Virus record (IMG/VR): IMGVR_UViG_3300027736_000020 | Location: 32,001-96,000 of that record | DNA length: 64,000 bases | Origin: a virus | Direction: 5' to 3' (one strand) | In this document: positions 8,292 through 57,400 of the stretch, one piece after another | Layout: every line of letters begins with the position of its first letter | How positions within the stretch are numbered: the first letter of the stretch is position 1 | Made by a program: the position numbers and the translations under genes | Notes under the pieces: model-generated | Databases searched by the model: none | The model's input: the letters and a program-made list of their open reading frames with translations, nothing else | Told to the model about the DNA's origin: nothing

Positions 8292-10445
8292 TTAAGTCAG
8301 GAGAGGCTCTACCGTAAAGGATACTCCTGCGGGTTTGTATTTGTTTACTAGAGTATAAACAAAATTTTGCAGATTTGGCGACAAAATATTGTTTATCGTA
8401 TCATCAGGAGCAACTTTTACAATAAATGTTCCGGATCCTGTAATTGGCCCGATCCTTGTTGCGTTTGATACAGAATCAGATGGATAAAATGTTGTAGATG
8501 TTGAGCTATTGTATAGTGCCGCGGAATAGGAAATTTCCAATGATCCTAACGTTCCTGCAGTCATTGAAGCTGTTGATTGTATGTTTATGGTGGTCGCAGC
8601 TCCAGATGTAGAGGGTGTTCCTGTAATTGTTACAACTCCAGTTCCTAATGACCCGGTTAAAGGAGTTCCATATATTGTGCTGCTTCCCCATGAAGTTGCT
8701 GGGAAAAAATAAGGCGCAGAACTGCCTATTATTGTAACGTTTCCCAGTATGGTAATAGTTGCGGTGTAATACGTTGCCCCTGATGATACGGTACCAATGG
8801 TTATTGAGTATGGTTTTCCAACTGCTCCTATTGTCGTAGAAGACACTGATTGGCTTGGACTAACAAAATATGTACCGATACCACCAGTACCCGTGCCAAG
8901 GGAGATTATTTGAGTACCTGATGTCACGTTAGTTCCAGATAATGTTTGTCCAATCGCAAGAGAACCAACAATGGACGCTACGGAAACAGTTAACGTCGTT
9001 GTGGAGATGGAACCAGTGACAATTGCTTCTGTAGTATTCCAAGGGGATATGATTTTTGTTTTTGTATACGGCAAAGAACTTGATGTTCGATTAAATGGAC
9101 TGATCTTCAGATCTTTATCCACAGAAGGAAAAATAATCTTGAAAGGAGCAGATCCATCAACTACAGCGGTGGATTGTCCAGTTGCAGAAGAAACCAGCTC
9201 TGCAATAGCCAGATTATTTGATTTTGGAAGTAACGCTTCTCGTTGCATTCTTGATCTGTACATTTCATCCATGTTTATTTCGGAAGTCTGACGGCTAACG
9301 CTAAGGATTTTTCCCCAATATTCCAACCATTCTCCTGTAGCAATATGCTGATTGGTTTGCTGGGTTGCGGCTTGAATTTGCATTTTGTAATCTTTTATCA
9401 TCAATACAATGGGAATCAGAAACCTGAAATTATTATTTGTAAAAATCGGCCAAGAAATTGCATTTGCATCAATATCCAGTCCTCCTTCCAAGAGCAATGA
9501 AGAGGGAATATGTGTGCCATATTCTAGATCATCACTGTATTCAGTTTTTATTCCACCGTACCCGTTGAGGATCTTAGTGTCATATTTTTCTTGAAAATAT
9601 TCAACAAATTCTTTTAGGGAATAGTCAGCAAGATCAATATACTCGGGAGAAAAATAGGAACAGGATGAACTGAGTGAAAAAGATGCATCTGCCACATAAA
9701 TTGAAGGATCTCCTTTGCTTTCTTCCGAAAAAATGGAATATGTGGGGTTTCCAATTAATTCAGAGAATAAAATAGTATTTGCAAAAATTTGTCTTTTCAT
9801 TTTTGCAATATTGATATATCCAGAAACGCACGACGATGTGATCTGTGTGCTTGGTACTGTTTGAATGACATCAAGATAATATGTTCCAGATCCACCACTG
9901 CCAGTTCCCTTGGCAATGATTTTTGTTCCGGAAACTACTCCAACTCCACTCAATACTTGACCAATTGATATTCTTCCTGATGCAATTGAAGCAACATTGA
10001 GAGTACAGACAGTCGTTGACCCTGTCGGTGTCACATACGTATTTTGATAAATATTCGCGGTAAAAACTGCTTGAAGGACAACAGAGGAAAGATCTGGACT
10101 GGATAGTGAGAATATACCTTCTGAAGAATATTCATTGATGTCCCAAATTGCATTGATTTCTTTCATGTTGTTTGACAATGCATACGTCAAATCATATGGT
10201 ATTCCGGATAAAAAAACTGAATCTCCAAGAGCAAAATTCTTGAAATAATTTGTGGTTTTGTGCTTTACAACAATTGTATTATTGTACGGTTTGTCAATGG
10301 AAAGAATTGCAATTGGTTCAGGATGAACTCTTGCAAATGTTATTGCATTTTGAGGAATAGGATCTATGGAAAATAATCCCGGAAGTTCTTGAGAAATTCG
10401 AGACAATATGGTTGAGTTTGGCAAAACATCAAGAGGAGTACTCAT
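8292..10445 (-). CDS. Baseplate wedge protein (P2 gpI / T4 gp7-like) with inserted domains
   Basis: ATGEWLEYWGKILSVSR...MYRSRM and C-terminal LVNKYKPAGVSFTV; lies directly after baseplate J. Start moved from 10514 to MSTPLD (10445), next to the J stop. Confidence 0.8.
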   Translation of the reverse strand: MSTPLDVLPNSTILSRISQELPGLFSIDPIPQNAITFARVHPEPIAILSIDKPYNNTIVVKHKTTNYFKNFALGDSVFLSGIPYDLTYALSNNMKEINAIWDINEYSSEGIFSLSSPDLSSVVLQAVFTANIYQNTYVTPTGSTTVCTLNVASIASGRISIGQVLSGVGVVSGTKIIAKGTGSGGSGTYYLDVIQTVPSTQITSSCVSGYINIAKMKRQIFANTILFSELIGNPTYSIFSEESKGDPSIYVADASFSLSSSCSYFSPEYIDLADYSLKEFVEYFQEKYDTKILNGYGGIKTEYSDDLEYGTHIPSSLLLEGGLDIDANAISWPIFTNNNFRFLIPIVLMIKDYKMQIQAATQQTNQHIATGEWLEYWGKILSVSRQTSEINMDEMYRSRMQREALLPKSNNLAIAELVSSATGQSTAVVDGSAPFKIIFPSVDKDLKISPFNRTSSSLPYTKTKIISPWNTTEAIVTGSISTTTLTVSVASIVGSLAIGQTLSGTNVTSGTQIISLGTGTGGIGTYFVSPSQSVSSTTIGAVGKPYSITIGTVSSGATYYTATITILGNVTIIGSSAPYFFPATSWGSSTIYGTPLTGSLGTGVVTITGTPSTSGAATTINIQSTASMTAGTLGSLEISYSAALYNSSTSTTFYPSDSVSNATRIGPITGSGTFIVKVAPDDTINNILSPNLQNFVYTLVNKYKPAGVSFTVEPLLT

Positions 10446-10446
10446 G

Positions 10447-13400
10447 TTATCGTATCTCGCAGGTTCCAAGCTTGAGTAATGATCCACGAAGAGGGACAAT
10501 AATATTTTGATCAATTGAGCTGGAATCCAGTGCAGATATTGTTACTGCAGAAATTCCCGGAATTCTCATTATTCTTTTTGTCAATTCAGATTTCTGAAAA
10601 TACTTGAGGCTGGGATTTACAAATTCATATATTACTGCGGAATTGAGATTTGTATCAAATAAATCGGTATAATACCATTGTGCTGAATCGCTTGAATACA
10701 CCTTATTTGTAAGATAAACCCAAGATGATCCATTCCACTTGAGAATGTCTACCGAAGCCAATGTAGGCCCATTTGCTGGTTTGGAAAAAGATATCTTAAT
10801 GCTGGAATACGTTCCAGTAATTGATTTTGATACTGAGGGAAATGATTTGTTCCCCTTGTCATCAATACACACAGCCATGTACTGATGCGTGGTTGATGCT
10901 ATACCTGATCCAATGCCAGCAAGGGTTATCGTTGGGATTCCAAATCCATCACTAATATCAAGTTCATTAATATAGTCAGAAACGGTAATGAAAATCTCTG
11001 TGGAAAGCAAATCTATTTTGTATCCATAATCAACAGTGGCAGAGATTGAAAAATCTTGTGTTTGAAATGCCGCGCTTTGAATGGTTACAGGAATTCCTGC
11101 CGCTTTGTACCCCGGATAAATAATTCCACTTGTGTTGTCCGTATACCCCTCAATGATTGTTTTGCACTTCAAAAGTAAATCGGCACTTACTGAGGAAGAA
11201 GTTCCATTTCCCACATAAAGCAAAATGTTATTGCTGCTTGTTTCTGTTGACAATGATTTGGTAATTTGTTCTGTAATATATCCAGCATTATCGGTAAGTT
11301 GTGCATTTTTTGCACCCTCCTCAATGGATTCTTTTGTTCCACGAGAAAGGGATTTTACAACTTTTTCAAAACGAGTTGTCCACTCTTCCTCTGTTTCATT
11401 ATTTGTGCCATTGGACAGAGAAGAAGCATTTGTTACGGAAGAAATACCATATACAGTAGTAAGTATTTCGGTAATCGTATTTTTTGCGGTGTTAAAAGAT
11501 GTTCCTGAGGAAGTTGCAACGACGGTATCTGTTCCTGAAGTGTAGTTTGAAGTACTCAATAATGTTATTGAATCAGCCAAAGAATACGTTTTTGAAGTGC
11601 TTGGAACGCGAACAATGGTTCCGGCTGGAATGACAAGATCACCCGTTGCAAGTTGCGCAGTGTTTGATGAAGGAAAAGAATTGAAAATTTGGCCAATCGA
11701 AGCTAACGTGGGGAAGAAACCATTATCCTCATAATAATAATATATTCCGTTAAACGCGGATGTCAAACTGGTCGTCAGTTTTTTGTATTCAATAATGCAT
11801 GAGTACGGCCAAACATCTGTCGTCCATGACAGTAAATTCAGGGAATTGATTTTTATGGAATACGAAACTCCACTAAATGCAGTGCTAGACACCAATGAAC
11901 TCAGCGTTAATGATGTAGGACTTGAAATAGAACTAATAGTTCTTTCGGGTGCAAGTGTTGGCGCTGAAGTTGATCTGACAACCAATAATGCTCCCAGCAT
12001 TGAAGTGTTCCATCCAGTCGAAACTCCAGTAACGGTTGTAGCACTTGAAGCTACGCTTATTGTTCCAGCACTATAATTTGTTTGTGTTTTCAACGGCGAA
12101 ATAGTATATGCTTGCGACGTTATCGATGTCGGAGTAGAAGATGAAGTGATGTTCTTGTATGTAGACAATGGAGTCTTTATTGATGCGGAAGAAACCCATT
12201 CTGTAACAATTCCGCCATATCCTTGATCTCCTCCTGATGCATTATCTTCGTCAAAGACAAGCTGGTCACCGATAATGGATTGATCGAAAGGAGAAATACT
12301 TCCGGTAACAACAATTCCGGAACTAACAGAAGGACCGGGACCAGATGTATTGGAGAACACTCCTGATATCTGACCGGAATGCATGTACGCATTTTCATAT
12401 GAAACACAATTTGCCATAGGAGACTGTTGTGTTGGCCAAGAGGAAATTGTTTCCTGAAAATTTCCAGTATCCTTTATCGTTAATCGAGGAGTGGCATCAT
12501 TGCTCGTGACAAGACCACCAACCGTGACTGCTCCCGGAGCACTGGCATTTGAAATGGTAATGGTAGTGGCAGAGCTTGTGTTGACAACGTATGTTCCATT
12601 GTATGCATTTGGAGTAAGTCCCGATAATGTTACTGATGTACCGATAGGAAAGGTATATCCTGCACTATGCGTAACCGTCCAGAGAGTTCCATTTGTTGTT
12701 ATTCCACCTGTGGCAATATTTGCGGCAAAAGAAAGATTTTCTGCGGAGGAAGAAGAACTTGAAAACACACTACCTGAGTCAGTAAGGGAAACAAGTGACG
12801 ATGCAACATCTGCCCACTGATACGTGCCACTGTTTGATGCTGTTCTGTAAACTCTATAATGCGTAACGGCAACATCGGATGTTGCCCCCCAAGATACAAC
12901 AACTTGTTGGCTTGCAGTAAGAGTAACGGTTGATGCGCAAGCAATCTTATCACTTTCAATCTCATAAGGAACAGAAACATATTTGCCATTTGTATATGTT
13001 CCAGTATTTTTTATCACACATGAAACATAATATGCATAGGTTCCTGCAGTATTTGATCCTAATGAATATGGAGTCCCGATGGAAATTGTTCCGGGCGTTC
13101 CGATCAATGGTGAATTGATTGGAACGGAAAATTCGGTTGCATTGCTCATGTCAGGAGATGTTGATTTTGAAAAAACATATTTGTTTGCATATTTTGTCAA
13201 CGGAAGACTGAGCCTTGTGACAAGATTTGCAGATCCTACCGATGATGAAGAAGCAGGTGTTGTTGCATAACTTCTTGACTCCATGAAAGTCGAAGGTACA
13301 GCAGTGGCCAAAGCAGGAAAAATATTGTATGTTCCAATACCTCCGGATCCTGTAAGATATCCAGTAATTGTTGATCCATTGGTTCCATTGATCACAATGG

Positions 13401-14712
13401 TTTGCCCTACTGATAAAAATCCGCTTGATACTGCAGTGACAGTCAATGTTGTTGCGGTAATTGATCCGGTAAAACTTGCAAAATTTGATGTTGGAGGGCT
13501 ATAAATATTTTTTTCTTGTGCGGCAACACTGTAATAGTAGTTTGTGCTTGCAGACAAGGTTCCAATACTATCACCAGTTTGACGAATATCGGTTGAAACA
13601 TAGAGCGCAGACGGCATTGCTGCTGCAGAACGATAAAACTTGTATCTTGTGGCACTTGGAATATGGGGAATATTCATTGAACACCAGTTATCATTGAAAA
13701 GTCTGGCTACGGGATATGTGCCAACGGATTCTTTTCCCAGCGAATCAATGCCAATAATGCTATAGAAATAAATTCCTTTTGCTCCCATATTATCAGAAAC
13801 AGTAAAATTTCCATCAGTGCTCAATGTGCCATCGATAATTGGAGAAGTTGAGGAAATTTGCCGGACAGTTGTGTTTGTTTCAGCAGTAATGCTTACAATC
13901 CCTGAACCAAGACTTCCAGTTCCGTCAATTGTTCCGGAAATAAGACGCATGCTTGTTGCGTTGGCACTGAAAGTGGTTCCTGTAACGGTCAGGGTTGCCG
14001 TGTAGGGTCCTGTCCCGGCAGATGAAGAAATGACAAGCGCTGTCGCTTTGCCACTCAACCCAAAATGCGGAGTTACGCCCGTATATCCAGAAAAAGTAAT
14101 CCCAGTTGTTGAAGGCACTGAGTGTCTCATCAAATCGGCATTGAGAATATTTTGACTTAATGTGGTCGGAATGACTGATGACCTATATATCCTGTATGCG
14201 GAATACCCATCTTGTTTTGACCAATACAATTTTGCAGTGGCGGTCCTGTATTGCCCGGAAGGAGCAAGGTATCTTGTAACAGGCTGGCTTTGATTCGCAT
14301 TATTATCCGGCTGAATTCCTGTGACGGAATAATATAAAGCATTTGTGTTTGCAGCAGGCAAGTTTCCTGCTTGATAGGTAAATGATATTCCGGGAAAAGT
14401 TACATCCTCAGTCGAATTTATTACTGTGGGAGATGGCAACATCAATCGTGAAAATACTACCGGACCGTATGCTTTGGAAGCAGGAAGAAGCGGCTTGTTA
14501 AATGCTTGTTTTACGGCAGTTCGAATCGATGATGCAACACTATCTGCAAATACAATATTATTATTGTATATTTCTGAAGATATGGCTTCAACAAGAGAAC
14601 GAATGACAGATCCTTCTGAAAAATCAGTTACTTGATCCGTATGCGTAATTATATGCGCAATGGCCTTTGCTGCAATATCCGGTTGTCTTTTGAGTCGAAA
14701 TGTTTCAACCAT
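10447..14712 (-). CDS. Baseplate J-like (gp6-like) wedge protein with ~930-aa insertion
   Basis: TDFSEGSVIRSLVEA, GDLVIPAGTIV, NGTNNETEEEWTTRF, LSRGTKESIE and GYKAAGIPVTI are baseplate-J-type motifs. Confidence 0.9.
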   Translation of the reverse strand: MVETFRLKRQPDIAAKAIAHIITHTDQVTDFSEGSVIRSLVEAISSEIYNNNIVFADSVASSIRTAVKQAFNKPLLPASKAYGPVVFSRLMLPSPTVINSTEDVTFPGISFTYQAGNLPAANTNALYYSVTGIQPDNNANQSQPVTRYLAPSGQYRTATAKLYWSKQDGYSAYRIYRSSVIPTTLSQNILNADLMRHSVPSTTGITFSGYTGVTPHFGLSGKATALVISSSAGTGPYTATLTVTGTTFSANATSMRLISGTIDGTGSLGSGIVSITAETNTTVRQISSTSPIIDGTLSTDGNFTVSDNMGAKGIYFYSIIGIDSLGKESVGTYPVARLFNDNWCSMNIPHIPSATRYKFYRSAAAMPSALYVSTDIRQTGDSIGTLSASTNYYYSVAAQEKNIYSPPTSNFASFTGSITATTLTVTAVSSGFLSVGQTIVINGTNGSTITGYLTGSGGIGTYNIFPALATAVPSTFMESRSYATTPASSSSVGSANLVTRLSLPLTKYANKYVFSKSTSPDMSNATEFSVPINSPLIGTPGTISIGTPYSLGSNTAGTYAYYVSCVIKNTGTYTNGKYVSVPYEIESDKIACASTVTLTASQQVVVSWGATSDVAVTHYRVYRTASNSGTYQWADVASSLVSLTDSGSVFSSSSSSAENLSFAANIATGGITTNGTLWTVTHSAGYTFPIGTSVTLSGLTPNAYNGTYVVNTSSATTITISNASAPGAVTVGGLVTSNDATPRLTIKDTGNFQETISSWPTQQSPMANCVSYENAYMHSGQISGVFSNTSGPGPSVSSGIVVTGSISPFDQSIIGDQLVFDEDNASGGDQGYGGIVTEWVSSASIKTPLSTYKNITSSSTPTSITSQAYTISPLKTQTNYSAGTISVASSATTVTGVSTGWNTSMLGALLVVRSTSAPTLAPERTISSISSPTSLTLSSLVSSTAFSGVSYSIKINSLNLLSWTTDVWPYSCIIEYKKLTTSLTSAFNGIYYYYEDNGFFPTLASIGQIFNSFPSSNTAQLATGDLVIPAGTIVRVPSTSKTYSLADSITLLSTSNYTSGTDTVVATSSGTSFNTAKNTITEILTTVYGISSVTNASSLSNGTNNETEEEWTTRFEKVVKSLSRGTKESIEEGAKNAQLTDNAGYITEQITKSLSTETSSNNILLYVGNGTSSSVSADLLLKCKTIIEGYTDNTSGIIYPGYKAAGIPVTIQSAAFQTQDFSISATVDYGYKIDLLSTEIFITVSDYINELDISDGFGIPTITLAGIGSGIASTTHQYMAVCIDDKGNKSFPSVSKSITGTYSSIKISFSKPANGPTLASVDILKWNGSSWVYLTNKVYSSDSAQWYYTDLFDTNLNSAVIYEFVNPSLKYFQKSELTKRIMRIPGISAVTISALDSSSIDQNIIVPLRGSLLKLGTCEIR

Positions 14713-20031: not shown

Positions 20032-22062
20032 TTACGATGTGAACATGAACTGACGGTAATAGGTTGTTCCAGAAGACCAGCCAAGAGTTCCTGAGGTGTC
20101 TGTAGCGGCGAGGACTTGCCCAACGGTTGGGGATGTGGGTAATGTCATCCTGACTCCAGCATTATTTATTCGCATACGTTCGTATCTTGCATTAAATGTT
20201 TGCATAGAAATTGCAGAGACTGCAGCAGATTGCGTGGAGCTAACAGTATATGTTCCCTTTCCTCCAAGCACAGTTGTTGGTGTTTCAGTGCTTGTTAATT
20301 GATCGAGAATAATAAGTCCGGAAGGAAGTCCAGCAGCATTTACAATTTCTTGAAAAGGTGCAATAGTTCCTGATGTTATTGCGGATACCGTGAGAATTGC
20401 GCTATTTGATGGAATGGATCCAGTAAAACTTGCTGCCGTACCAGCACCATTTATATAAAAAACATGATTTGCTGCTCCTCCTGCTATATAATCAAGTTGA
20501 CTGCCAGATATTCCAAAACCGAAGAAATTTGACGCGTATGTTGATCCTCCATCCCAAAGAATTATTTTGTTTGCAAATCCTGCATAAGGAGCATATGACC
20601 ATGCAGTAACGGAAAGTGGGGGGGTTACTAACGATAGAGACACGGTTCCTGTTTGCAAAGGCCCAATGGTTGTTTTCCCAGCAGCAGTGATGCGCATTCG
20701 CTCCAAACCTTGAGACATACTTCCCGGATTTGTGTAAAACGTAAGATCTGAAGGAACACTCCCCGTTGCCACTGTTCCGTTAGAAATTCCGTATATTCCG
20801 GCACCTTCTATAAAATTTGTTCCATCATATCCTTCCCATGTAATATGACCCAAATAATCCCCATTAACAACGGTTAACTTTGTTGCAACGGTTCCGCGAG
20901 ATTTTCTTATACGAAGATTGGGAGCATTTGAATTTGCCCCGTTGGCACGAAGCAAATACAAAGACTCTGTTGATCCCTGAATATCTAACAAAGCTCCCGG
21001 AGCAGTGGTCCCAATGCCGACGTTGCCGGATGGATTTAAAATAGTTATCCTTGCACTTAATGATGGCGATAATTTACATAGACCAGTGTTATTAGTAGTA
21101 GGATACACAGTTGTTCCGTTATATGTAAAAATATGTCCAACTGCATAGACCGATGCTCCTATATCAGACCACCAAGTATTTCCCACAACGGTAATAGTGT
21201 ATTTTGTTCCGCTCACTAGCCCTGTTGTTGGATTAAATGCAGTTGCGCTATTATCTCCTTTATCATTTCCGTATAGTGTAATGCTAGATGGCTGATATGC
21301 CATGCCACCAAGGTAACTGTCGGGAAGTGTGGTACCACGAGGTGTATAAGGAAAGATAAGCGGCGCCCAAGAAAAATCATCTGTAGATCGCCCAATTGCT
21401 CTATATGCTTGACCTCCCGTATCAGAATATGAACCAATTTCTGTAAAAGCAGCTTTCCCGCGAACGTCAAGTGCTGCATCAGGACCAGTGGTTCCAATAC
21501 CGACGTTGCCAGCAGAAGAAAAATAAACCCTTGAAGTTCCTACTGCGACATTAACTGCAGATCCACTGCGAAACTCCAATCCGCCATTAGCTCCTCGAAT
21601 AGTATAATTATTGCCGCTTGCAGTAATTCCTGTAAATTGGGTTGGGCTAGATACTGATAAACTGGAAGGATTAGTTACGGAATATGTTCCATTCCCACCT
21701 GCTGTACCAGTGAGTTGTCCTGTAATAACTACAGTTGAAGAAAAACCGCTCCAATTAATTGTTTGTCCAACAGCAAGTGTACCTCCTGCTGACACACCTC
21801 CAACTGATAGTGTTGTTCCAGATACTGTTCCTATTCCAAACGCTGCCACAGAATCAAAATACAGCGCTGTTGACAGTGTTGATAATTCAAAACTATCTGT
21901 TCGCCGCTTCATTTGCAATCCAGCAAAACCAGTTCCGGCTATTTCTAATGTAGTTGCCGGACTCGTGGTCCCAATGCCGACGTTTCCCAATGAAACAGTC
22001 AAGCCATTGGGAAAATCGGGCGTAGAATTTACTAAACTTCTTGTTGGTGCATATCTTGTCAT
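20032..22062 (-). CDS. Tail/head fibre protein with GNVGIGTT repeats
   Basis: Three GNVGIGTT junctions. Start moved to MTRYAP (22062), giving an ATGA overlap with the upstream stop. Confidence 0.82.
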   Translation of the reverse strand: MTRYAPTRSLVNSTPDFPNGLTVSLGNVGIGTTSPATTLEIAGTGFAGLQMKRRTDSFELSTLSTALYFDSVAAFGIGTVSGTTLSVGGVSAGGTLAVGQTINWSGFSSTVVITGQLTGTAGGNGTYSVTNPSSLSVSSPTQFTGITASGNNYTIRGANGGLEFRSGSAVNVAVGTSRVYFSSAGNVGIGTTGPDAALDVRGKAAFTEIGSYSDTGGQAYRAIGRSTDDFSWAPLIFPYTPRGTTLPDSYLGGMAYQPSSITLYGNDKGDNSATAFNPTTGLVSGTKYTITVVGNTWWSDIGASVYAVGHIFTYNGTTVYPTTNNTGLCKLSPSLSARITILNPSGNVGIGTTAPGALLDIQGSTESLYLLRANGANSNAPNLRIRKSRGTVATKLTVVNGDYLGHITWEGYDGTNFIEGAGIYGISNGTVATGSVPSDLTFYTNPGSMSQGLERMRITAAGKTTIGPLQTGTVSLSLVTPPLSVTAWSYAPYAGFANKIILWDGGSTYASNFFGFGISGSQLDYIAGGAANHVFYINGAGTAASFTGSIPSNSAILTVSAITSGTIAPFQEIVNAAGLPSGLIILDQLTSTETPTTVLGGKGTYTVSSTQSAAVSAISMQTFNARYERMRINNAGVRMTLPTSPTVGQVLAATDTSGTLGWSSGTTYYRQFMFTS

Positions 22063-23569: not shown

Positions 23570-25633
23570 CTAAATAATGAACCATGTGTTTGTGCCATCG
23601 GAAACAAATGTATATGAATCATATTGCGCCGGAATTGAAAATGCTGCTCCTGCACTGCCTAATTCAATGAACTGTCCAGCTGCTGGAGTAATGTTTACAG
23701 TGCCGGGCGTCAGTCTTTTTATGATGTACACCCTGTTTGCCGCAGTGGCTGCATTAGGCAGTGTATAAACAACATTCCCTGTTGCCGCACTAGTAATAAT
23801 ATATTGCGTGGCATCAAGCGTTGTTCCACTAGCAAGCAAAGGAGAAACTTTTACTGATTGTGATCCTGATACATGAAATGTAGATTTTGGATCACTCGTC
23901 CCAATGCCGACGTTGCCAGCGGTAGTAATTCGCACTCGTTCCGCCCCGTTGGTGTATATTTCCACACCTCCAACGTTGTATGTTCCTCCTGAACCTCTTG
24001 CAACAAACATGCCTGAAGTGGCGGTTGTCGGACCACCTCGCAGAATAAGTGATCCATCGGCAGTATTTACTGGCCGGTCAATGTATACATCGGCTGTGGC
24101 ACCGTTAACGGAAAGAGATGCGGTAGGACTCGTGGTCCCAATGCCGACGTTGCCAGCATTGGTAATTGCCAAGCGGACTAAGCCATTTGGGCCTCCGCCA
24201 TACGTAGTGTCGGTTTTCCAATCTTCGCGGAAAATTCTGAACAAACCGGAGGCGTTATCTATATTCCATATGACTGGAGTACCAGTCATTGTTGCTGCAG
24301 TGGAAACGGTGGCGAGACTTGTGTCAAGATTGACCGTATATGGGCCAGATCCTGACACACTTGTCACAACGGCTCCCGTAGTAACTCCCGCGACAGACAG
24401 CACTTGTCCCGCAGCCCAAGCCCCGGTTACTGTTCCGGAAGTGGTCATGACTGTTCCAAGTATCGTACCTTGAGACGAAGCAGTGTTCGTAGTCTCGGAT
24501 TCAAGGGTCAGCCGTCCGTTTGTTGGTGCACCAGCGAATCCTTGAGGAGATGTGGCTTGCGGTGCGCGAAGGCGAAGATGCCCGTTGATGCTGACAGGAA
24601 CAGAAAATCGCGCAAGCATGGAATATGTTGAATACTGATAAGCTCCGGTAGTGTACACCTCATTGTATGTAGGAAAACTGAGATCAAAAAATCTTTCGGT
24701 AATATTTGTTCCGCCAGAAACTGTTGCATTTCCCCCGGTATCTGTTCGTTCAGGATATCCCCAAATGCTGTATTGTCTTGCACCCGTAATTTTTGTGTCG
24801 CTTAATGTGTCTACATACGTAGCCCAGTGTATGCCGCCCAAATCCGAAAAAGAATATGTGGAAGTTCCCGCCGTGCTTGTTGTAGTGGAAAAAATGACTA
24901 CATCCGTGGCGTTTGTTATTGATTGAATAATGCAAGAAGTGCCAACGGCTCCTGCAGTTGTCCCTGTGGCAACGCTTGTCACTTTCATTCCAATGTGTAG
25001 TGCGGAAGTTGATGCAACCGCCAGTGTTGCAGTCCTAGCCGAACCAGTGCCACCCACAGCAGAAATTGTTCCACCAATACTGGGCACATCGGTATTTTTT
25101 GCAAAAAGCTGAACTGCAACCCAAGGAGCTGTCGTTCTTGTGGCTTGAATATTTATTTGCGACGTATTCATGAAGGCATAAATTCGATTATTTACCAATA
25201 AGTATTCTTTTGATTGATCAATTGCTCCTGCTGCATTTCCATATCCAATAGTCAAATTTGGATTTGGCGTATTCGTATACGTAAATAATTGAAAATTGTC
25301 AGAAGCAGTTGATGTTAATTGCAGTCCATTAATTGTTCCGGTTCCATTAGAAAATGTACCCGTCACAGAAGTATTATTATTTAAAGTGATTCCACCGGGC
25401 GCACCAACCCACAAACTTTTTCCGGCAGTGCTTGTATAAAGTCGTATTTGATTATTCGTCGGATAGTCATCAATGGTGTATCCAATGGTGCCAATTGAAA
25501 GGGATGAAAGGGACTGCGTGGACGAAACACTCAACGTCGTGACGCCATTCGTTGTCGATGAGGTCAGCCCGGTTCCTCCCAGAACTTGGGCCGCAACATT
25601 CAATCCAGAAACCGTTAGCGTCTTGATAGTCAT
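23570..25633 (-). CDS. Fibre protein with GNVGIGT repeats
   Basis: 687 aa; two GNVGIGT junctions; C-terminal YTLPNAATAANRVYIIKR...YDSYTFVSDGTNTWFII fibre-tip motif. Confidence 0.8.
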   Translation of the reverse strand: MTIKTLTVSGLNVAAQVLGGTGLTSSTTNGVTTLSVSSTQSLSSLSIGTIGYTIDDYPTNNQIRLYTSTAGKSLWVGAPGGITLNNNTSVTGTFSNGTGTINGLQLTSTASDNFQLFTYTNTPNPNLTIGYGNAAGAIDQSKEYLLVNNRIYAFMNTSQINIQATRTTAPWVAVQLFAKNTDVPSIGGTISAVGGTGSARTATLAVASTSALHIGMKVTSVATGTTAGAVGTSCIIQSITNATDVVIFSTTTSTAGTSTYSFSDLGGIHWATYVDTLSDTKITGARQYSIWGYPERTDTGGNATVSGGTNITERFFDLSFPTYNEVYTTGAYQYSTYSMLARFSVPVSINGHLRLRAPQATSPQGFAGAPTNGRLTLESETTNTASSQGTILGTVMTTSGTVTGAWAAGQVLSVAGVTTGAVVTSVSGSGPYTVNLDTSLATVSTAATMTGTPVIWNIDNASGLFRIFREDWKTDTTYGGGPNGLVRLAITNAGNVGIGTTSPTASLSVNGATADVYIDRPVNTADGSLILRGGPTTATSGMFVARGSGGTYNVGGVEIYTNGAERVRITTAGNVGIGTSDPKSTFHVSGSQSVKVSPLLASGTTLDATQYIITSAATGNVVYTLPNAATAANRVYIIKRLTPGTVNITPAAGQFIELGSAGAAFSIPAQYDSYTFVSDGTNTWFII

Positions 25634-35728: not shown

Positions 35729-38700
35729 TTATGCCCTCAATAACAGTCTGCCTGCATTACCTGCCTGAACATTCTGGAGCGTGTAGGCATTGTTTGAATA
35801 ATAGATATTCGCGCCATAAGAGAAAATAACACGAGGCCCATTCGTCACCAAATTGTTGAATGAATCACCCATGACGTTGGCATTGATGGCTTGTCCAGTA
35901 GATTGCTGCAAATACGTCGGATTCCCTGCTGTGGCATGTGTAGGATCATTCAAGAGCACTCGTGAATTATAGGTTGTTGTTGTTGACCGTCCCTTTGGAT
36001 AGATGTAAAACAATCCACGGAAAGGAACAACACCGAGATCTCCCAAGTAATCCGCATTATTTGCAACACGGTAGGACTGACAGCTGGTTGTCGATGCAGA
36101 AGTGTAGGAACTGCTTGCTGCGGACACCAATGCAGTAGTAACGCGATAGATGGTTCCGGTAGAAGCCGCAGAAATAATGCAGTAAATTGTTCCCGCAGTA
36201 GGGTCAATGTAGAAAGAAGTGGGATTGTATGATGTTGATGATGTGGTTGTGACAACAAGGTTTGCAACGTTGTACACGGAAGTTGCATTATCTGCAGTAT
36301 ACGAAACAAGACGCATGGTTTGTGCTGATGACGCAGTGCCGTTTTGCGTAGCTGCATACGTTGTTCCATTATAGTCAGGAATTGGAGTTCCAAATGCGGA
36401 TGCAAACGCCAGTGCAGTGGGACTCGTATACAATGCTGGCAACGCAACCGTTGCAACAGCGGTCAGGGAACCTGAATAGCCATATCCGCCCGAAATGATG
36501 ACTGGCGTTCCCGTCACCACGCCGCTGGTAACCGCTGCGGAGGCAATGGCAAGTCCCGTTCCTCCTGCAATCTGGAAAAACAGCGTCCCTGTCGTTGCGC
36601 CCAGATATCCCACACCACCGACGTTGATAGCAGCGGCAGTAACCACACCGGATGCAACCGTGGTGTTGACGGTAAACGACGCGCCGTAATTGAACGAACT
36701 ACCCATCGTTGCTGCCATCACGACACCAGATGCAACCGTTGAGGACTGACTCAAGGTATATGTTCCTGTGCCACCAGTGCCGGTACCAAACGCAGTAATC
36801 ACCGAACTTGCTGTCACCCCAGAGCCGGTGATCGTCTGCCCAATTGCAAGGTTGCCAATGGCTACCGCAGAGACAGTCATGGTGGTTGTTGAAATGGTGG
36901 CAGTAAAGGAACAATTCATGATGGCAAGTGAACAGACGGTTGGCTGCAGTGCAGCCTGTCTCTGTGTCACGTACAGGTATTTGTTATCAAGATTCAGATA
37001 GCCCCCGCCCATCATGACGGACGTTGCCAGCGCCGTCCCCGCGGTGTAGCCAGTTCCGCCATACACCACCGTTGCTGCACCAGTGGTGGCACCTGCTGTG
37101 GTCAGCGCGATGGAACACAGTGCGGGAAATCCCGTCTGTCCCGGTATGGTGAAAAACATCGTTCCAGTGATCTGATTGAGATATCCAGTTCCCGCAGCAG
37201 TTACCGTTGCTACAGTAACCGCGCCACCCACCACGGTTGTGGTAACGGTCAATCCTGATCCTGCACCATTTGGAAACGTGTAGCTTGTTGCTGCCAATGT
37301 TTCCGTATCGATCTTTACCACGCCGAAATATGTCGATGCATAAATGCTTCTCGCGCCGTCAAAGACAATATCAATGACCCCGAGGCTTACGCTGTTCGCG
37401 TACACCAGAGTGGGAGAAACCGTTCCCGCACTCATTGGCCACGTATAGACGCCTTCCTGAGCACAAGCCCAGACGTTATCACCGATCACGATCATCTTGG
37501 AGACGTTGGTGGTCATCGCATTCGTTGCTACGGGAGCGGACATCTTGTTCGCTCCATAGGTAATCGATCCGATTTCTGTTCCGCCATTCATCGGCAGGAT
37601 CACGCAATCAGCCGAAGTGCCCGTCGATGCAACCCAACCTCCCGTGGTATCGAGTGTCAGTGTGGTGGTATCGAGGAATGATCCGATCTGCTTGGTGGTG
37701 CTCAAGTTGTACGTCCGCCCAAACGGAATGGACTTGGAAATCGCGTCAATGGAGATCGGAGAAGCAAATGCCTTGGCCGTCGAAGTATCCCATCCATACG
37801 TCAGATTGTAATAACTGGCAAGATGCAAGAGATTGGTATCCACCGAGATGGCAAGGGTTCCTTGTGGATACGAAGGCGGGAACATACCACGGTTTGTCAC
37901 TGGCGCGTAAATCTGCGCTGCCGCAGCACCCGTGAACCCGTCCTGTGTCCTTGGGAATGCATACATGATCCTGCTGATGGTACCCGTCGTCTTTCCGTAG
38001 GGAGTGCCGATCATGACACTGTTTGTCCACGCAAAACACGGTGCACCGTTTCCAACGGTATCTTCAGGGACAACCCGTTCAAACTCGAACACTCCAGTCC
38101 ACATTCCCGGCTCTGACTTGATGAACGGCCACAGGACAAGATGCCTTGCCGTTGCGCCCACCCAGATGAAACAATCCTTGAGATCGTATTGCTGGGGAAA
38201 TGATCCCGCTCCGTTCCACGTCTCATTGGTTGCCACATGTGTCACACTGTTCCAATACTCGCAAACGGATGTGAAGAACTGCACCTTCGCAACATCCCAG
38301 CGCAAAATGAAATACTTCCATGTATACGGATAGGTAGCAACAGCGGTATTCGCAGTATAATTTGTGCCGCCAGAAACAATCGTGATCGTTCCCGCTGGCA
38401 CACCACTCGTCACGCCAATCGTGGCAATTGCCGGAACACCGCCACCAGCAATGGTGAATGTCAGCGTACCTGTTCCAGAGCTCAGGTATGCTGATCCGGC
38501 AGCGTTCAAGGTAGCCGCAGTGACCACACCGCTCGACACCGTCGTGTTGACCGTCAAGCCTGTACCCGTGCCATCATTATTCGGAGCACGATACACATAC
38601 GTGTAGATGGGAGAAAACGCACTGCTTGTCCCAGCACCCGGCACCGCATTCGTGACCGTATCGTAACTTGTCCACCCCAAGGCAGTAATTGCCGTGTTGA

Positions 38701-38788: not shown

Positions 38789-38817
38789 GTTTTTCTCCCT
38801 TGTTCAGTATACAATTT

Positions 38818-41589
38818 TTACGCCTTAACGAGTAGTCTTGCGGTAACTTCACCTTCAGTGCTGTGCATGCTGTAGATATTTTTTATGAGATGAATGGCAG
38901 TATACGATGATCCGGTTACACACATTCTTGGGCCATTAGTAAACATTCCAAAAAGGCTATACTGCTCCAACCAAAACTGGGACATTCCGGCACTAAAACT
39001 TGTGTGTAAATGTAAACCTGAAGTTGAAGCGCCAGCCGTAGCATTATTTGGATCCGAAAAAATTACTCGTGTAAACTGCGTAATTCCTTCATATACTCCC
39101 TTGAAATAAAAACGTCCTTTTATAAATCCTTGAAACCAACTTTGACCACCGTAGTTACCAGTAGAATCCAAAATCGTACCTTGATTTATACTCAAGTCAA
39201 ATGTCACGTAAGATATCGTTAAAACAGCGGTGGGATTTGCTGAGGAACTTACACGAGAAATTATTCCAGATGGATAATAACTAGCAGTAGTTGAAGATTT
39301 AAAATAATATATTGAACTTGTGCATGAATCCATATACAAACCATGAACACCAGATTGATAGGCATTTCCTGGATAATACGCTCCATTAATTGCAGTTATA
39401 TTACTATATGAAGTATTGCTGTTGGTTGTATGAGGAATTGGTGTTCCCGTGGCAGAAGAAATTGTGTGCACATAACTTGCTGAATACGATGGTGGAGTAA
39501 CATTATAACCCAATTGCAACGCATATACATGACCAGAATAATTAGTCATCATACTTAATCCAGAATTACCTGCATCTCCTCTCTGAACTGATGAGGTAAA
39601 TGAGCTTATTTGAGTAAAAGAAGCAAGATCAATTATTGCAATCATTGGGTACACTAATGTATTGGATGACGTTACATAAAGATATTTATTGTCAATTACC
39701 GGCATCTGAGACACGCTTGTAATTGTCGATGTAATAGTAGAAGCAGCCAAAGTTTCTGTATCAATTTTTATAACAGTTTGACCGGTAATTGTTGTTGCAT
39801 AAATACTTCTTTCGCCATCAAAAAGCATTTCTCCCACACCAGTAGTGTTTGCATAAATTTGTGTCCACGTTGGTGCTATTGGACTAATAAACGCGGCTGG
39901 AGTAAAAAAGGTGTTTAAAACGGTCGGAGTAATCTGGGAAGAAACATTCAATCTCCAAATTCCTCCGTTTGCCCCGGAAGCAAAACACGATGCGTATATA
40001 TAGTCTCCAAGTAAAAAAGATCGATAAAATTTAGCAGGAATGTTGATTCTTATGTTATGTAGCCTGTTATTTTGCGCTTGATGCGTGGAAGTAAATCCAC
40101 TAAAAAATGGCGGAAATACAGATCCGCCATTCATTGGAAGAATTACTGTATCGCCAGCACTTCCCGTGCTGCTGGCCCATCCTCCGGAGTTGTCAAGGGT
40201 TGTCTGTGTAACTTCCAATGCTGATCCAATAGGTTTTGTTACTGAAACGTTATACATTCGACCGAACGGCATGTTCTTGCCAATGGCATCGACAGAGATT
40301 GGAGACACAAATGATCGCTCAACCGGGCGGAAACTTGTATCACTGGCTGCTCCCGCCCATGCGTACTGTGAATTATATGCGGATGCAAGATGCAACAGAT
40401 GTGGATCCGCTCCCGAGGTCATTGGCACGTATAGATTACTGTTGTTGGCACTAACAATAAAATTTCCACATTGTTGAGAAATATTTAGATTGTACGTTCC
40501 CGTTTGTCCTGTTCCCGATCCAAAGGAAACAATTCTCGTTCCCGGTACTACTCCGGGACCGCGAATCAAACTTCCAACCGTTATTGTTCCTGCGTTCATG
40601 GTTTGCACGGTAAGAACAGTTGATGGAACACTTTCATTGTTGATCGTACCAATATAGCCCAAAAACGATGCACTACCGTGTGTCAACGTACCACTTGGAT
40701 ACGAGGGAGGAAACGACCCCCTGTTGGTAACGGGAGCATATGCTCCCGCTGCAGCTGCGCCTGTCAATCCATCTTGTGTTCGAGGAAATGCAAACATGGT
40801 CTTGCTTGGCGAAACATGCTGGGCAATAGCCCCGTCGGAAAACTGCGTTCCAATTATTACCGAGTTTGTCCATGCCCAACACGGTGCAGCGTTCGCGACG
40901 GTATCTTCCGGCGCAGAACGCTCAAATTCAAAGACCCCAGTCCACAATCCGGGTTCTCCGAGGATGAATGGCCAAATCACGATATGTCTTGCAGTGGCAC
41001 TGACCCAGATATAGGAATCCTTGATATCGTAGTTCTGAACGAATGATCCGTTATTGTTCCACGCAAGATTGGTCGCCACGTGATTGGTTGCATCCCACGA
41101 CTCGCATGTTCCTGTCCAGAATGCCTGCTTGCGAATGTCATACCAGATAATGCAATACTTGTAGGTAGACGCATCCGCGTTGATTGCACGGTAGACACGC
41201 AGGAACATTGGGGATGCGTTACTGGATACCACGGACATGGCCGTCGCAGAACCCACGGTGGAGGACTGGCTCAGGGTATATGCGCCAGTCAACTGGCTTG
41301 TGGGAGCCACGGTAATGACCGAGTTGCTGGTCACTCCCGATCCGACAACGGTCTGTCCTACCGCAAGTGCTCCTGCGGATACTGCCGAGACAGTCATGGC
41401 AGTTCCGGAAATCGTGGCCGTAAATGAAATTGGGCTACCCGGAATCCAGTTATCCACCGAATCCCACAGCGTCCATCCAAGCCCCGTAATGGCCGTATTC
41501 ATTTTTGTCAGGATATTCGTATACGTAACCTCATTGCTGATGACTACCCGGACACTATTGGTGGTATACGGAATGTTTGTTACTGACAT
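38818..41589 (-). CDS. Large virion accessory protein (paralog B)
   Basis: 923 aa; shared motifs WTGVFEFER..PEDTV.N.APC.AWTNSV and FPRTQDG.TGAAAA..YAPVTNRG. Confidence 0.8.
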   Translation of the reverse strand: MSVTNIPYTTNSVRVVISNEVTYTNILTKMNTAITGLGWTLWDSVDNWIPGSPISFTATISGTAMTVSAVSAGALAVGQTVVGSGVTSNSVITVAPTSQLTGAYTLSQSSTVGSATAMSVVSSNASPMFLRVYRAINADASTYKYCIIWYDIRKQAFWTGTCESWDATNHVATNLAWNNNGSFVQNYDIKDSYIWVSATARHIVIWPFILGEPGLWTGVFEFERSAPEDTVANAAPCWAWTNSVIIGTQFSDGAIAQHVSPSKTMFAFPRTQDGLTGAAAAGAYAPVTNRGSFPPSYPSGTLTHGSASFLGYIGTINNESVPSTVLTVQTMNAGTITVGSLIRGPGVVPGTRIVSFGSGTGQTGTYNLNISQQCGNFIVSANNSNLYVPMTSGADPHLLHLASAYNSQYAWAGAASDTSFRPVERSFVSPISVDAIGKNMPFGRMYNVSVTKPIGSALEVTQTTLDNSGGWASSTGSAGDTVILPMNGGSVFPPFFSGFTSTHQAQNNRLHNIRINIPAKFYRSFLLGDYIYASCFASGANGGIWRLNVSSQITPTVLNTFFTPAAFISPIAPTWTQIYANTTGVGEMLFDGERSIYATTITGQTVIKIDTETLAASTITSTITSVSQMPVIDNKYLYVTSSNTLVYPMIAIIDLASFTQISSFTSSVQRGDAGNSGLSMMTNYSGHVYALQLGYNVTPPSYSASYVHTISSATGTPIPHTTNSNTSYSNITAINGAYYPGNAYQSGVHGLYMDSCTSSIYYFKSSTTASYYPSGIISRVSSSANPTAVLTISYVTFDLSINQGTILDSTGNYGGQSWFQGFIKGRFYFKGVYEGITQFTRVIFSDPNNATAGASTSGLHLHTSFSAGMSQFWLEQYSLFGMFTNGPRMCVTGSSYTAIHLIKNIYSMHSTEGEVTARLLVKA

Positions 41590-52580: not shown

Positions 52581-52586
52581 GTTTTT

Positions 52587-54408: not shown

Positions 54409-54427
54409 GTCATTTTCTTCCTTTTCT

Positions 54428-57400
54428 TTACAAGATATGTGCGGTGATAAGCAGGTAATTTGCGGGAATTGCCGGACTTATGGAGAAGTCCACATAGATT
54501 GCATCACCAACGGTGCGCACATCAAGATCTTTGTACGCCGGATTGAATGCATTTCCCACAATCAGTCCTGCGCTATCTGCATAGATAAGAGTCGTATTGA
54601 CCCTTCTTGTAATCTCCTGAATGAGCGCTCCATCCAATCTCGACCCAACAAGATCTCGTACGGAATTCCTGACTCGTTTCATGACAATATCTGCACAACG
54701 CATCGTGCTGATTTCGCGTCTGACATAACGTGTATCACCGGTCCATGTCGTCAATGACTGGGCAACGACAAATCCGCGAGAAGCCTCATATTTTATTGCA
54801 AGAACTCCATTGGCCGCAAGATCGTCAATATCGGACGGTTTGGCAATTGTTTCCAAAGCCAACAGGTTGACAGTCTTGTTTGTAAGCGGAATTGATGGAT
54901 CCCTCTGCGCATAGAGAAGTCCGGCAATATATGGGGCAAGATAAACAGGAGACCATGTAATAAGGTTTCCATCTTCGTCATAATCCTTGATTCCCGGCCA
55001 GACAACAACGGCTCGTTTGTCATTGAATGAAGAGGCAAGCGTCTTGACATCTGTAACGCTCTGCCCTGAAGGACCACCAAAGACCGCAAAGCGTTCCTTC
55101 TTTCCAGTTGGAAGCGCCATGTTCTTGCAATGCTCAAGCACTGCAGACTGAATGACCGAGTTAGCGGTCATTGGACAGATAACTTCGACTGTTTCTGCGC
55201 TTTCCAGTTGCGTCAATGCATAGTCCCAGTGATAGGCAGTAACGGCACTCTGTACCGCACCAGAAAATCCATATGATCCGTTGGCGATGGATGATGCAGT
55301 GCCTGTTTTCACAACAGAGAAATGCGGAGAGTACACATCACCGAGGAGTGTCTGATAAATGCGATAGATGTTTCCCCGTAGAATAGTATTCGCAGTAGAG
55401 GAAGCCACAGCAATGGCAGAAGAACTTGGAACTGTTGTTTCAGCAAGAATGTCAAGATTTGTCGAAGAAAATCCAGCGTCTGTATTGCCAGATGCAAGAG
55501 ACAATTTCCAGCCAGTTCCGTTTGCAATATAGCCTTGATTTACTTTTTGAATGATTGAAGAAAGCTGAGGATATTTTGCCCACGTCAACTGGTCTGTTGT
55601 ATTATCAAGTCTGAAGTTTGACCCGGAAATGTCTGTGGGAACACTTGTGTAAGTAACCGTTCCTGTTCCCTTTCCTCCGGCAGCTGATGCGGTAAAACTA
55701 GTGCCTACTGCGTTAGGTGTTGTTCCGGAAGAACCCAACAGTCTGAAATCTGTTGCAAATGCGGTAGTGAATGTTACCTTGTCTGTAACCGCAGCAATGG
55801 GAGCAACAGGCGCAGTCGGAACTCCATATCCTGTTTGTCCAGCAACAGTGACAGTGATCGTGTACGCTGTACCGTTATCTGACACCGATGCAATGACAGG
55901 ATTTAGACCGAGGGAAGAAACAGGAGTTGCCGTTCCTGCCGTAGCAACTGCTGCGACAGTACTGGTATTTGCAATAGTAAACGATGTTCCTGAAATGCTT
56001 GTATTGACTACATGCGTACCGTTATACTCAGTAGGACTAAGACCAGCTAACTTTACCAACGTTCCCGGAGGAAACTGATATCCTGCACCATGAGTAACAG
56101 TCCAAATCGTTCCGTTTGTCGTAATTGCCCCTGTAGCAACAGTTGCAGGAGTGGTTGCTGCTACAGTTATGACAGAAGTCGGATTGATTATTCCATTGGA
56201 AACCAATGCGCCAGTAAGAGCATACGTCCATCCATAGGCTATGGAATACTGGCAGGATGCAATGGTGCCCGTTGAGTCTGTAAGAAGAGTCTGTGCATCT
56301 GTGACGCTGACAATTTTCGCAACAGTTGAAAAAGCTACCATTGTTGTTGAGACAACGGTCTGGCTTGTTGCAGCACCGTTTACTTGCACGGTGTAGGTGC
56401 CAACACCAGTTGTGCCTGTTCCCAATGCGCTGATTTTTGTTCCGGGAAGGACTCCAGTTCCGCCAATCGCCACATTGACGCCAAGAGTAGCTGTTGCAGC
56501 GGTGACGGTCAATGTTGTTCCAGAAATTGATCCAGTAAATACACCCCCATCTCCAAAGGTAATTGTTCCTTCGGTCATGATTCCAGAAAATCCAGTTCCT
56601 GTTACCGTATATCCAGCTCGCGATACAGTATTCACTGCTGTCGCAGGAATCACGCTTGTTCCTGCGGTGACTGTTCCAACGGTCATCGCTGAGTTGGCAT
56701 TTAATGCATTGCTGGTTAATGTTGCTGTTTTGACAACGTTAGCGGGAGCGGTGTTTTGCGAGATTGTGTAGTATCTTCCCTGTACAAGATTCCCTGCGGT
56801 TACCGTAGATGTCTCTGAAGGATTTCCCGATGTTGCTGTCAGCTCAATTCCTGTTCCTGTTATTCTTACCTTGGGAATAATCGATGCAAGGTTTGCCGCT
56901 GCATTGACATTACTAGCGCCATCATTGTTGATATACTCAACCTTGAGCAAATCCAATCCGACATTATCCGTGACAAAAGTCGCACCTCCATCACGAGTCA
57001 ATGTGATTTTCTTGTATCCGGTTTTTCCATTGGAGGCATTTGCAAGTGACAATAGCCAAGAATTTCCGTAGTAGCCATATTCCTTCGCTGTCAAGGTAAA
57101 AGGGGAAAATGAAGTGGTTGCTTGCGAAGCAGTCGCAGCAATTGACGAACCTGCTGCAGTGGTTGTGGTAATAGGACTTCCGATTCGTACGGCAATGACT
57201 CTTGGAGCGCCAGCATTGAACGCCTTCCTGAGACCAAAAACCAAAGGATTGGTTACGGGATCTGGGTCTCCATAATAGGCAAGTGCGGTATTGTAATTGC
57301 TGAAAGCCAACGGCTTGCCGGGTTCTCCTCGCACAGCTTCACCCATGATGACCATCTCTGGTCCAGTGCTTGGCGCTGCTGCGAATGATGCATTATTGTC

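What the first reader, a model, noticed from the sequence alone, without database searches (positions are those of the whole stretch)
8540..56810. A kit of small beta domains plugged into loops of nearly every virion protein
One ~65-aa domain (consensus F-T-G-S-I-S-x-T-T-L-T-V...L-x-x-G-Q-x-I-x-G-x-G-V-x-x-G-T-x-I...G-T-G-x-G-G-x-G-T-Y) occurs about 12 times in 9 genes: wedge (~8830-9020, ~9835-10030), baseplate J (~13270-13480), tube initiator (~17410-17585), 683-aa fibre (~20210-20430, ~21640-21840), 687-aa fibre (~24290-24460, degenerate), 1404-aa fibre (~29860-30065), paralog A (~36715-36912), paralog B (~40470-40655, ~41235-41430) and sheath (~56340-56545). At least three further domain types are dispersed the same way. 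Conserved core proteins are much longer than usual because of them. Inference: a virion-wide decoration system coating head, tail and baseplate with many copies of weak adhesion domains, spread by domain-level recombination.
Basis: partly seen in the sequence, partly recalled or inferred. Interest (0 to 1): 0.8.

Follow-up and report, generated by a model that had tools for sequence, protein, structure and literature searches.

The report
Mobile beta-barrel studs on phage tail
An uncultured 184-kb lake phage carries twelve copies of one small, unnamed, self-folding protein barrel in nine of its tail, baseplate and fibre proteins, and related phages gain, lose and swap such barrels, so they are probably optional surface studs like the known phage Ig-like domains, though what they touch is untested.

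Summary
Confirmed: exactly 12 copies of a ~70-aa domain (X) in 9 genes at the stated places, none elsewhere in the genome; leave-one-out E 1e-6 to 1e-18. X folds as a closed six-stranded EF-Tu-II/FCCH-type barrel (pLDDT 96); the closest phage structure is the Bridgette capsid decoration protein (8ECI, Z 7.5). It has no Pfam model but occurs in 7,172 protein clusters. It is mobile: orthologous sheath, wedge, arm and tube-initiator proteins of relatives lack it or carry it at other sites. In one relative a second barrel (Y) was recently copied from the baseplate-J gene into a loop of X in the next gene. Overstated: X is in 9 of 39 ORFs, not in capsid, tube, tape measure or hub; it explains 7-22% of the extra length of three core proteins; only Y is clearly dispersed the same way; adhesion is untested (X is 3% charged, 33% Thr/Ser, lacks Trp). 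Verdict: a new variant of a known kind (promiscuous accessory virion domains), with unusually wide spread. The scan reported a similar or identical barrel before in an E217-like phage (e1-3416807).

The parts
8292..10514 (-).
   Evidence: phrog_7378/1160 baseplate hits; relatives 517-1232 aa with 0-6 X and 0-3 Y
8805..9029 (-). Domain X, copy 2 of the 740-aa protein (aa 496-570)
   Evidence: interrupted by a nested Y barrel in L083
9819..10034 (-). Domain X, copy 1 of the 740-aa protein (aa 161-232)
   Evidence: absent in the 41%-identical orthologue in L080
10447..14712 (-). 1421-aa baseplate J / wedge protein: phi812 gp116 core with one ~930-aa insert (about aa 90-1020) that holds X, an FN3-like module and Y
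   Evidence: PF04865; phi812 4-84 matches 8-88 and 94-209 matches 1027-1144
12514..12720 (-). Barrel Y (FCCH-like) in baseplate J (aa 665-733); donor type of the copy found in the L083 arm protein
   Evidence: 70% DNA identity to the sheath copy
12763..13047 (-). FN3-like module in baseplate J (from motif resemblance only)
   Evidence: no Pfam hit
13270..13479 (-). Domain X in baseplate J (aa 412-481)
   Evidence: absent in P0286-P0289, at other positions in P0290 and P0291
17388..17603 (-). Domain X in the C-terminal extension of the 624-aa tail tube initiator (gene 16755-18629)
   Evidence: PF23980 at aa 69-200; relatives of 285-318 and 510 aa lack X
20188..20439 (-). Domain X, copy 2 of the 683-aa fibre-like protein
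21622..21849 (-). Domain X, copy 1 of the 683-aa fibre-like protein; part of a 182-aa segment shared with the 1404-aa fibre
   Evidence: 50% aa over 182 aa; 79% DNA over 187 nt beside the domain
24284..24487 (-). Degenerate domain X in the 687-aa fibre-like protein
   Evidence: leave-one-out E 2.7e-6
29826..30071 (-). Domain X in the 1404-aa fibre-like protein
36449..36685 (-). Type Z beta module, copy 3, paralog A
36704..36916 (-). Domain X in paralog A (aa 625-695); the copy that was folded
37022..37264 (-). Type Z beta module, copy 2, paralog A
38333..38569 (-). Type Z beta module, copy 1, paralog A (found in no other gene of the genome)
40435..40635 (-). Domain X, copy 2 of paralog B (aa 319-385), at a site where paralog A has no insert
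41221..41430 (-). Domain X, copy 1 of paralog B (aa 54-123)
54428..57460 (-). 1010-aa phi812-type tail sheath; a variable segment (about aa 181-620) at the outer-domain position holds X and Y
   Evidence: (Z 24 to phi812); the 682-aa relative aligns only to 1-177 and 619-1010
55931..56143 (-). Barrel Y in the sheath (aa 440-510)
56312..56542 (-). Domain X in the sheath (aa 307-383)
59737..60132 (-). Variable FN3-like insert in the major capsid protein (aa 379-510); not X; present in all six family members aligned

Best explanation
Domain X is a ~70-residue, independently folding, closed six-stranded beta-barrel (EF-Tu domain II / FCCH type) whose two ends lie together, so it can be spliced into a loop without breaking its host. 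Shown: fold prediction, clean in-frame insertions, and presence, absence or different sites among orthologues. Rare illegitimate recombination drops X and its cousin Y into the already variable, outward-facing lobes of sheath, wedge, arm, tube-initiator, fibre and propeller proteins, sometimes inside each other, and ordinary segment swaps between co-infecting relatives then spread the products. Shown for Y in L083; inferred for X, whose window copies are old. On the virion the barrels form knobs and stalks: about 200 on the sheath and tens on baseplate and fibres (inferred from phi812 stoichiometry and tape-measure length). Most likely benefit (inferred, about 45%): weak, many-copy contact with host-surface or extracellular polysaccharide that holds the particle near cells before the true receptor proteins bind, as proposed for phage Ig-like domains. 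I put 85% on the mobile surface-module part.
For: 12 copies, significant by leave-one-out. AF2 pLDDT 96, pTM 0.83. Fold matches include externally displayed phage domains: Bridgette capsid decoration gp7 (Z 7.5, rmsd 2.2 A over 66 residues, 29% id), Mystique tail-tube domain (Z 6.0), lambda J insert (Z 6.0), tailspikes; FCCH barrels face outward on siphovirus tubes (PMC13576161). Clean insertion of X at a second sheath site in P0272, on a branch apart from the window's clade. The arm protein carries X,X (window), X,X,Y,Y (L079, 81% id), Y nested in X (L083, 78%), no X (L080, L081) or six X (L082). The L083 insert is 86% identical over 218 nt to the baseplate-J Y of sister L084 and 31/38 identical at four-fold sites, against 34% by chance. 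pN/pS of X is mostly 0.1-0.4. Elsewhere X sits on capsid cement proteins, sheaths, P22 gp10-like hubs, tail collars and a PilY1-annotated protein.
Against: No binding data of any kind. X is 2.8% charged and 33% Thr+Ser, with almost no Trp and with Tyr/Phe conserved at single positions, unlike typical glycan-binding modules that stack sugars on exposed aromatics (own knowledge). Conserved positions are Gly and hydrophobic, as expected for fold alone, and there is no sign of diversifying selection. The sheath insert is poorly modelled (pLDDT under 50 except X itself at 50-65), so surface exposure rests on homology with phi812 (PMC13433997). The tube initiator lies in the baseplate core in phi812, so its X may not be exposed. 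All Z-scores are under 8, the range of a common fold. Many relatives do without X.
Confidence: 0.55

Rival explanations
1. Structural filler or shield. X is a cheap, rigid, uncharged building block that lengthens outer lobes and fibres, or gives the particle a hydroxyl-rich non-stick, protease-resistant surface, or cements neighbouring subunits. It recognises no ligand.
For: Composition; the whole sheath insert is equally uncharged (4.4%) whatever its domain type; arrays of 22-28 copies in giant proteins, with a 60-residue period in which one strand seems to run on into the next barrel; X, Y and other modules replace each other at the same site; stability was proposed for extra sheath domains (PMC9230969).
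Against: Single copies in many unrelated hosts and on a stand-alone capsid decoration protein (8ECI) fit a surface function better than a spacer; no stability data.
Confidence: 0.3
2. Near-neutral passenger. The barrel spreads because it folds anywhere and does no harm; selection only removes mutations that unfold it.
For: Patchy presence in relatives with no obvious compensation; pN/pS higher than in the cores, up to 0.6-1.0 for paralog B copy 2; one degenerate copy.
Against: About 200 extra barrels per particle are costly; copies are kept intact across silent-site-saturated distances and in strains from three independent lake studies; deletion would be easy if they were useless.
Confidence: 0.1
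3. Docking sites. X binds a phage-encoded partner (for example the family of small 109-204-aa paralogues in the fibre cluster) and so recruits appendages along the tail.
For: Four small paralogous genes lie among the fibre genes; barrels of this fold often bind proteins (EF-Tu domain II, E1 FCCH; own knowledge).
Against: X occurs in 35-53-kb phages and in RHS-repeat and PilY1-annotated proteins, where no such partner was looked for or seen; its surface residues are generic Thr/Ser.
Confidence: 0.05

Closest known systems
Promiscuous Ig-like (Big_1/Big_2/FN3/I-set) accessory domains of tailed phages (Fraser et al. 2006 as cited in PMC9230969; tail-tube examples in PMC8718954)
   Same: Small beta domains added to many unrelated virion proteins, exchanged horizontally, outward-facing, often dispensable, proposed to bind surface carbohydrate weakly (unverified there too).
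   Different: X is a closed barrel, not a beta-sandwich. It is inserted inside loops and nests inside other barrels, where the Ig examples read here are mostly terminal additions. It occurs in nine genes of one genome.
E1-FCCH-like barrels on phage tail tubes (PF16190; gp39/gp13 of NBD2 and MED16, PMC13576161)
   Same: Six-stranded closed barrel of similar size, displayed on the virion exterior; structural match to E1 FCCH Z 5.9; ESM feature hit 0.84 to an FCCH cluster.
   Different: No copy of X or Y hits PF16190 even at E 1; X and Y are only weakly alike (hhalign 39-46%); X has its own sequence family.
Arthrobacter phage Bridgette gp7 capsid decoration protein (PDB 8ECI)
   Same: Best phage structural match: Z 7.5-7.6, rmsd 2.2 A over 66 residues, 28-29% identity, top Foldseek PDB hit (E 0.07, TM 0.75).
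   Different: gp7 is a stand-alone dimeric head decoration protein; X is an internal insert in tail proteins; no sequence-level match; function of gp7 unknown.
Multi-domain (type 3) tail sheath proteins (PMC9230969) and the Staphylococcus phage 812 tail and baseplate (PMC13433997)
   Same: Conserved sheath core with extra domains away from the tube; phi812-type sheath, wedge and initiator proteins.
   Different: The extra domains described there are mostly Ig-like and were not traced across genes; here one barrel family is shared among sheath, wedge, arm, initiator and fibres, and the inserts are far larger (about 930 aa in the wedge protein).

Membership tests
Phage Ig-like accessory domains | Immunoglobulin beta-sandwich fold | tested here: not met
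   A confident model (pLDDT 96) aligns over its whole length to closed barrels of the EF-Tu-II/FCCH type; antibody sequence hits were non-significant (E 0.02 or worse).
Phage Ig-like accessory domains | Found on many unrelated virion proteins and exchanged horizontally | tested here: met
Phage Ig-like accessory domains | Exposed on the virion surface | tested here: inconclusive
   X lies in the segment that replaces the outer sheath domain of phi812, but that segment is poorly modelled.
Phage Ig-like accessory domains | Weak carbohydrate or surface binding; dispensable for assembly | not testable with these tools
   Needs binding and deletion experiments; absence in relatives suggests it is dispensable in evolution.
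E1_FCCH-like barrel (PF16190) | Six-stranded closed antiparallel barrel | tested here: met
   Z 5.9, rmsd 2.3 A over 65 residues to human E1 216-297; this is a common fold.
E1_FCCH-like barrel (PF16190) | Match to the Pfam profile | tested here: not met
   0 of 44 X and 0 of 7 Y sequences hit PF16190 at E up to 1; X against the FCCH segment of P0008 gave hhalign 0.2%, Y 28%.
Bridgette gp7 decoration protein family | Same fold with detectable homology | tested here: inconclusive
   Z 7.5 and 29% identity in the structural alignment, tied with an archaeal protein at Z 7.7; no HMM hit.
Bridgette gp7 decoration protein family | Stand-alone protein bound to the capsid as a dimer | tested here: not met
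   All 12 copies are internal parts of 624-1421-aa proteins.
phi812/SPO1-type contractile tail (host scaffold) | Sheath, wedge, tube, tube initiator and sheath initiator homologous to those of phi812 | tested here: met
   capsid protein 24-25% identical to Bacillus and Lysinibacillus phage capsid proteins. Formal taxonomy not tested.

The most novel reading that the evidence does not exclude
X and Y are the core of a second, barrel-based class of promiscuous surface modules, parallel to Ig-like domains and shared by phages, giant viruses and bacterial adhesin-like proteins. They grow by nesting inside one another and give lake virions a defined surface property: either avid binding to a common freshwater polymer or an uncharged non-stick coat.
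Probability: 0.2. Interest if true: 0.72.

Novelty: new variant of a known kind. Interest (0 to 1): 0.45.

Why it matters
Accessory virion domains are thought to raise encounter and adsorption rates in dilute habitats, but the idea rests almost wholly on Ig-like domains and is little tested. X is an abundant family (7,172 clusters at 50% identity) with no Pfam model and no tblastn hit among 50,697 GenBank phage records. It is tiny and predicted to fold alone, so it is easy to express and assay. This phage family supplies natural with/without pairs at defined sites and one recent gene-to-gene copy, which shows how structural genes grow by nested domain insertion. A profile for X would also annotate many hypothetical phage and giant-virus proteins and mark insertion-tolerant loops.

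Tried and rejected
Thr/Gly bias as the cause of similarity: rejected. Recent copying among the window's X copies: rejected; four-fold-site identity is 364/1120 = 32.5%, about chance. A genome-specific X clade: not supported but not formally rejected (10 label changes against 11.1 shuffled; p-AU 0.092; only 68 columns). Pfam, PDB-sequence and INPHARED tblastn searches with X found nothing significant (the low-complexity filter may hide hits); PHROGs 21413 and 38233 contain X but do not name it. Glycosylation scaffold: I checked the two charged ORFs beside the fibre genes and found no glycosyltransferase match; the rest of the genome was not screened. Ice binding: the model is a barrel, not a solenoid; not pursued. 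Fraser 2006 is not held and is cited through PMC9230969.
Full report
Setting. The window is positions 32001-96000 of a 184,088-nt virus record, and near-identical DNA occurs in freshwater and lake metagenomes of several studies. Almost all long ORFs are on the minus strand and form one virion module. It contains a major capsid protein (phrog_752), a protease and a tube, a sheath (phrog_279), a tape measure with an SLT domain, baseplate J (PF04865), a LysM sheath initiator, a tube initiator (PF23980) and a large fibre cluster. Sheath and baseplate J have phi812 proteins as their best solved relatives, so the tail is of the phi812/SPO1 type.

Observation. The next hit scored 6.4 bits and the best of 20 shuffled proteomes 8.1. 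Every copy is recovered when left out of the model (E 2.7e-6 to 1.4e-18). A model of 806 copies finds the same 12. I call the domain X. It occurs in 9 of 39 ORFs of the module and in none of the capsid, tube, tape-measure, hub, sheath-initiator or head-tail genes. A second module, Y, has three copies (sheath, baseplate J, and a 208-aa gene next to the ribonucleotide reductase outside the window). Z has three copies, all in paralog A. The capsid protein and baseplate J each hold an FN3-like insert by motif, but the two are barely alike. The other repeats are fibre modules. X explains 17%, 7%, 22% and 63% of the excess length of sheath, baseplate J, tube initiator and the 740-aa protein, and relatives with no X have sheaths of 920-1121 aa.

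What X is. AlphaFold2 on 44 sequences gives pLDDT 96 and pTM 0.83, all beta. It aligns end to end with closed six-stranded barrels: an archaeal protein (Z 7.7), the Bridgette capsid decoration protein gp7 (Z 7.5, 29% identity, also the top Foldseek hit), IF2/EF-Tu domains, the Mystique tail tube, lambda J and the E1 FCCH domain (Z 5.9-6.6). These scores show a common fold, not descent or function. No Pfam family covers X. It is nonetheless abundant: 7,172 clusters at 50% identity. It is found on capsid cement proteins, sheaths, P22 gp10-like hubs, tail collars, RHS-repeat proteins and a PilY1-annotated protein. In predicted viral structures it matches at TM about 0.9, including an HK97-type capsid protein and Indivirus collagen-like proteins. 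Nine near-complete 32-53-kb phages that carry X have 1-5 copies in 1-3 genes, so 12 in 9 is the most seen here, though in a much larger genome. X and Y are weakly alike (hhalign 39-46%). Y has an FCCH-like pattern by eye and was not folded.

Where it sits. In baseplate J, phi812 residues 4-84 and 94-209 match 8-88 and 1027-1144, so X and Y lie in a single insert of about 930 residues and not in separate loops of the core. In the sheath, phi812 27-178 and 309-521 match 27-181 and 733-946, and a 682-aa relative lacks 178-618. The model is confident for the core and poor for 235-600, with X at pLDDT 50-65. In phi812 the middle of the chain forms the surface domains III and IV (PMC13433997; the assignment of residues to domains is my inference), so exposure is inferred. 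With a 1044-aa tape measure I estimate about 200 sheath copies per tail (own knowledge: about 0.15 nm per residue, 4 nm per ring).

Is it mobile? Yes. Sheath: X is at residue 307 in the nine closest proteins, weak in the next, absent in 15 others, and inserted cleanly at a different site (window residue about 697) in P0272 on another branch. Baseplate J: X is at 412 in the close clade, absent in P0286-P0289, at 467 in P0290 and at 107 and 562 in P0291. Tube initiator: X only in the close clade. The 740-aa protein has X,X in the window and L084; X,X,Y,Y in L079; a Y nested inside X plus two more Y in L083; no X in L080 and L081; six X in L082. Paralogs A and B and their L080 homologue carry X or Z at different loops of one scaffold. 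L083 records a recent event. Its gene is 92% identical to sister L084 up to nt 1445, then holds 218 nt that are 86% identical to the Y of the neighbouring baseplate-J gene of L084, and matches L084 again at 87% from nt 2260. Four-fold sites in the insert agree at 31/38, like orthologous DNA of the two phages (70-80%) and far above chance (34%). A barrel was therefore copied from one gene into a loop of another barrel in the next gene. The window's own X copies are saturated at silent sites (32.5%) and scatter among outside copies on an unresolved tree, so their spread is old or came from a shared pool. Whole blocks also move: G001 has paralogs A and B at 91% and 69% identity while its core tail genes are about 30-55% identical and X-free. 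Strains about 97-98% identical keep the baseplate block but differ in the fibre cluster, and one swaps half of the baseplate-J Y.

Function. X is under moderate purifying selection (uncorrected pN/pS mostly 0.1-0.4, against 0.02-0.19 for cores). The window's copies are 2.8% charged and 33% Thr+Ser. Across 806 copies Trp is 0.1% and the conserved sites are Gly, hydrophobic residues and one Tyr. That fits a generic hydroxyl-rich surface and is unlike a classical sugar-stacking module. The literature offers both adhesion and stabilisation for extra sheath domains (PMC9230969), notes that carbohydrate binding by tail Ig domains is unverified (PMC8718954), and shows FCCH barrels facing outward on siphovirus tubes (PMC13576161). 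I rank weak multivalent adhesion first, structural filler or shield close behind, then neutral passenger and partner docking. Shown: repeat, predicted fold, mobility, selection. Inferred: exposure, copy number, benefit.

Novelty. The kind is known: promiscuous accessory domains on virions. The variant is an unnamed barrel family, inserted internally and nested, spread over nine genes of one tail machine, with one transfer caught in sequence. I found no paper on this family. An earlier report of this scan describes an unnamed 65-70-residue barrel in four proteins of an E217-like phage with the same closest structure (e1-3416807). I reached 8ECI before reading it and could not compare sequences, so it may be the same domain. 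Interest 0.45.

Noticed in passing
Outside proteins P0073 (aa 126-321), P0076 (812-1058), P0025 (167-442): Tandem X arrays have two periods, about 60 and 70 residues (145 and 139 of 543 pairs). In the 60-residue form the next copy lacks its first strand, and the previous copy's last strand seems to run on into it, which would give a rigid strand-sharing rod.
   Followed up: partly
window 59737-60132 (major capsid protein aa 345-510): The capsid protein has a variable FN3-like insert, kept in all six family members aligned (574-631 aa). If anything coats the head, it is this and not X.
   Followed up: partly
window 35729-41589 and L002 (G001): The paralog A/B block is 91%/69% identical in a phage whose core tail genes are only about 30-55% identical, which points to horizontal transfer of the block. 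The Atlas model of paralog B (low confidence) resembles seven-bladed propellers over aa 400-886.
   Followed up: partly
window 19690-20019, 22059-22673, 25633-25974, 28678-29043: Four small paralogous genes (109, 204 with two units, 113, 121 aa) interspersed with the fibre genes; possibly fibre adaptors or chaperones.
   Followed up: no
window 1489-4115: Three genes (294, 332, 297 aa) are 75-85% identical in distant relative L082 but replaced by single unrelated genes in close relatives L079, L083 and L084: a swappable cassette after the last fibre gene. No functional family found.
   Followed up: partly
window 4683-4916: An 87-nt tandem DNA repeat (92% identity) in the 1380-aa fibre gene, in the Gp34-trimer-like region.
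   Followed up: no
genome 135831-136457 (L088:10532-11158): A 208-aa gene directly after the ribonucleotide reductase, far from the virion module, carries a Y barrel; no family or structure hit.
   Followed up: partly
L075:13326-14703 and L078:6912-8285: Two relatives have tandemly duplicated tail tube genes.
   Followed up: no
BFVD entries A0A1V0SCQ2 and A0A1V0SDM6: X occurs in collagen-repeat proteins of the giant virus Indivirus ILV1 (43% identity, TM 0.90), so it is not confined to tailed phages.
   Followed up: no
L080:8350-14497: In this relative a different module is shared between the sheath initiator and baseplate J (E 1.7e-6), a hint that other lineages spread other domains the same way.
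   Followed up: no
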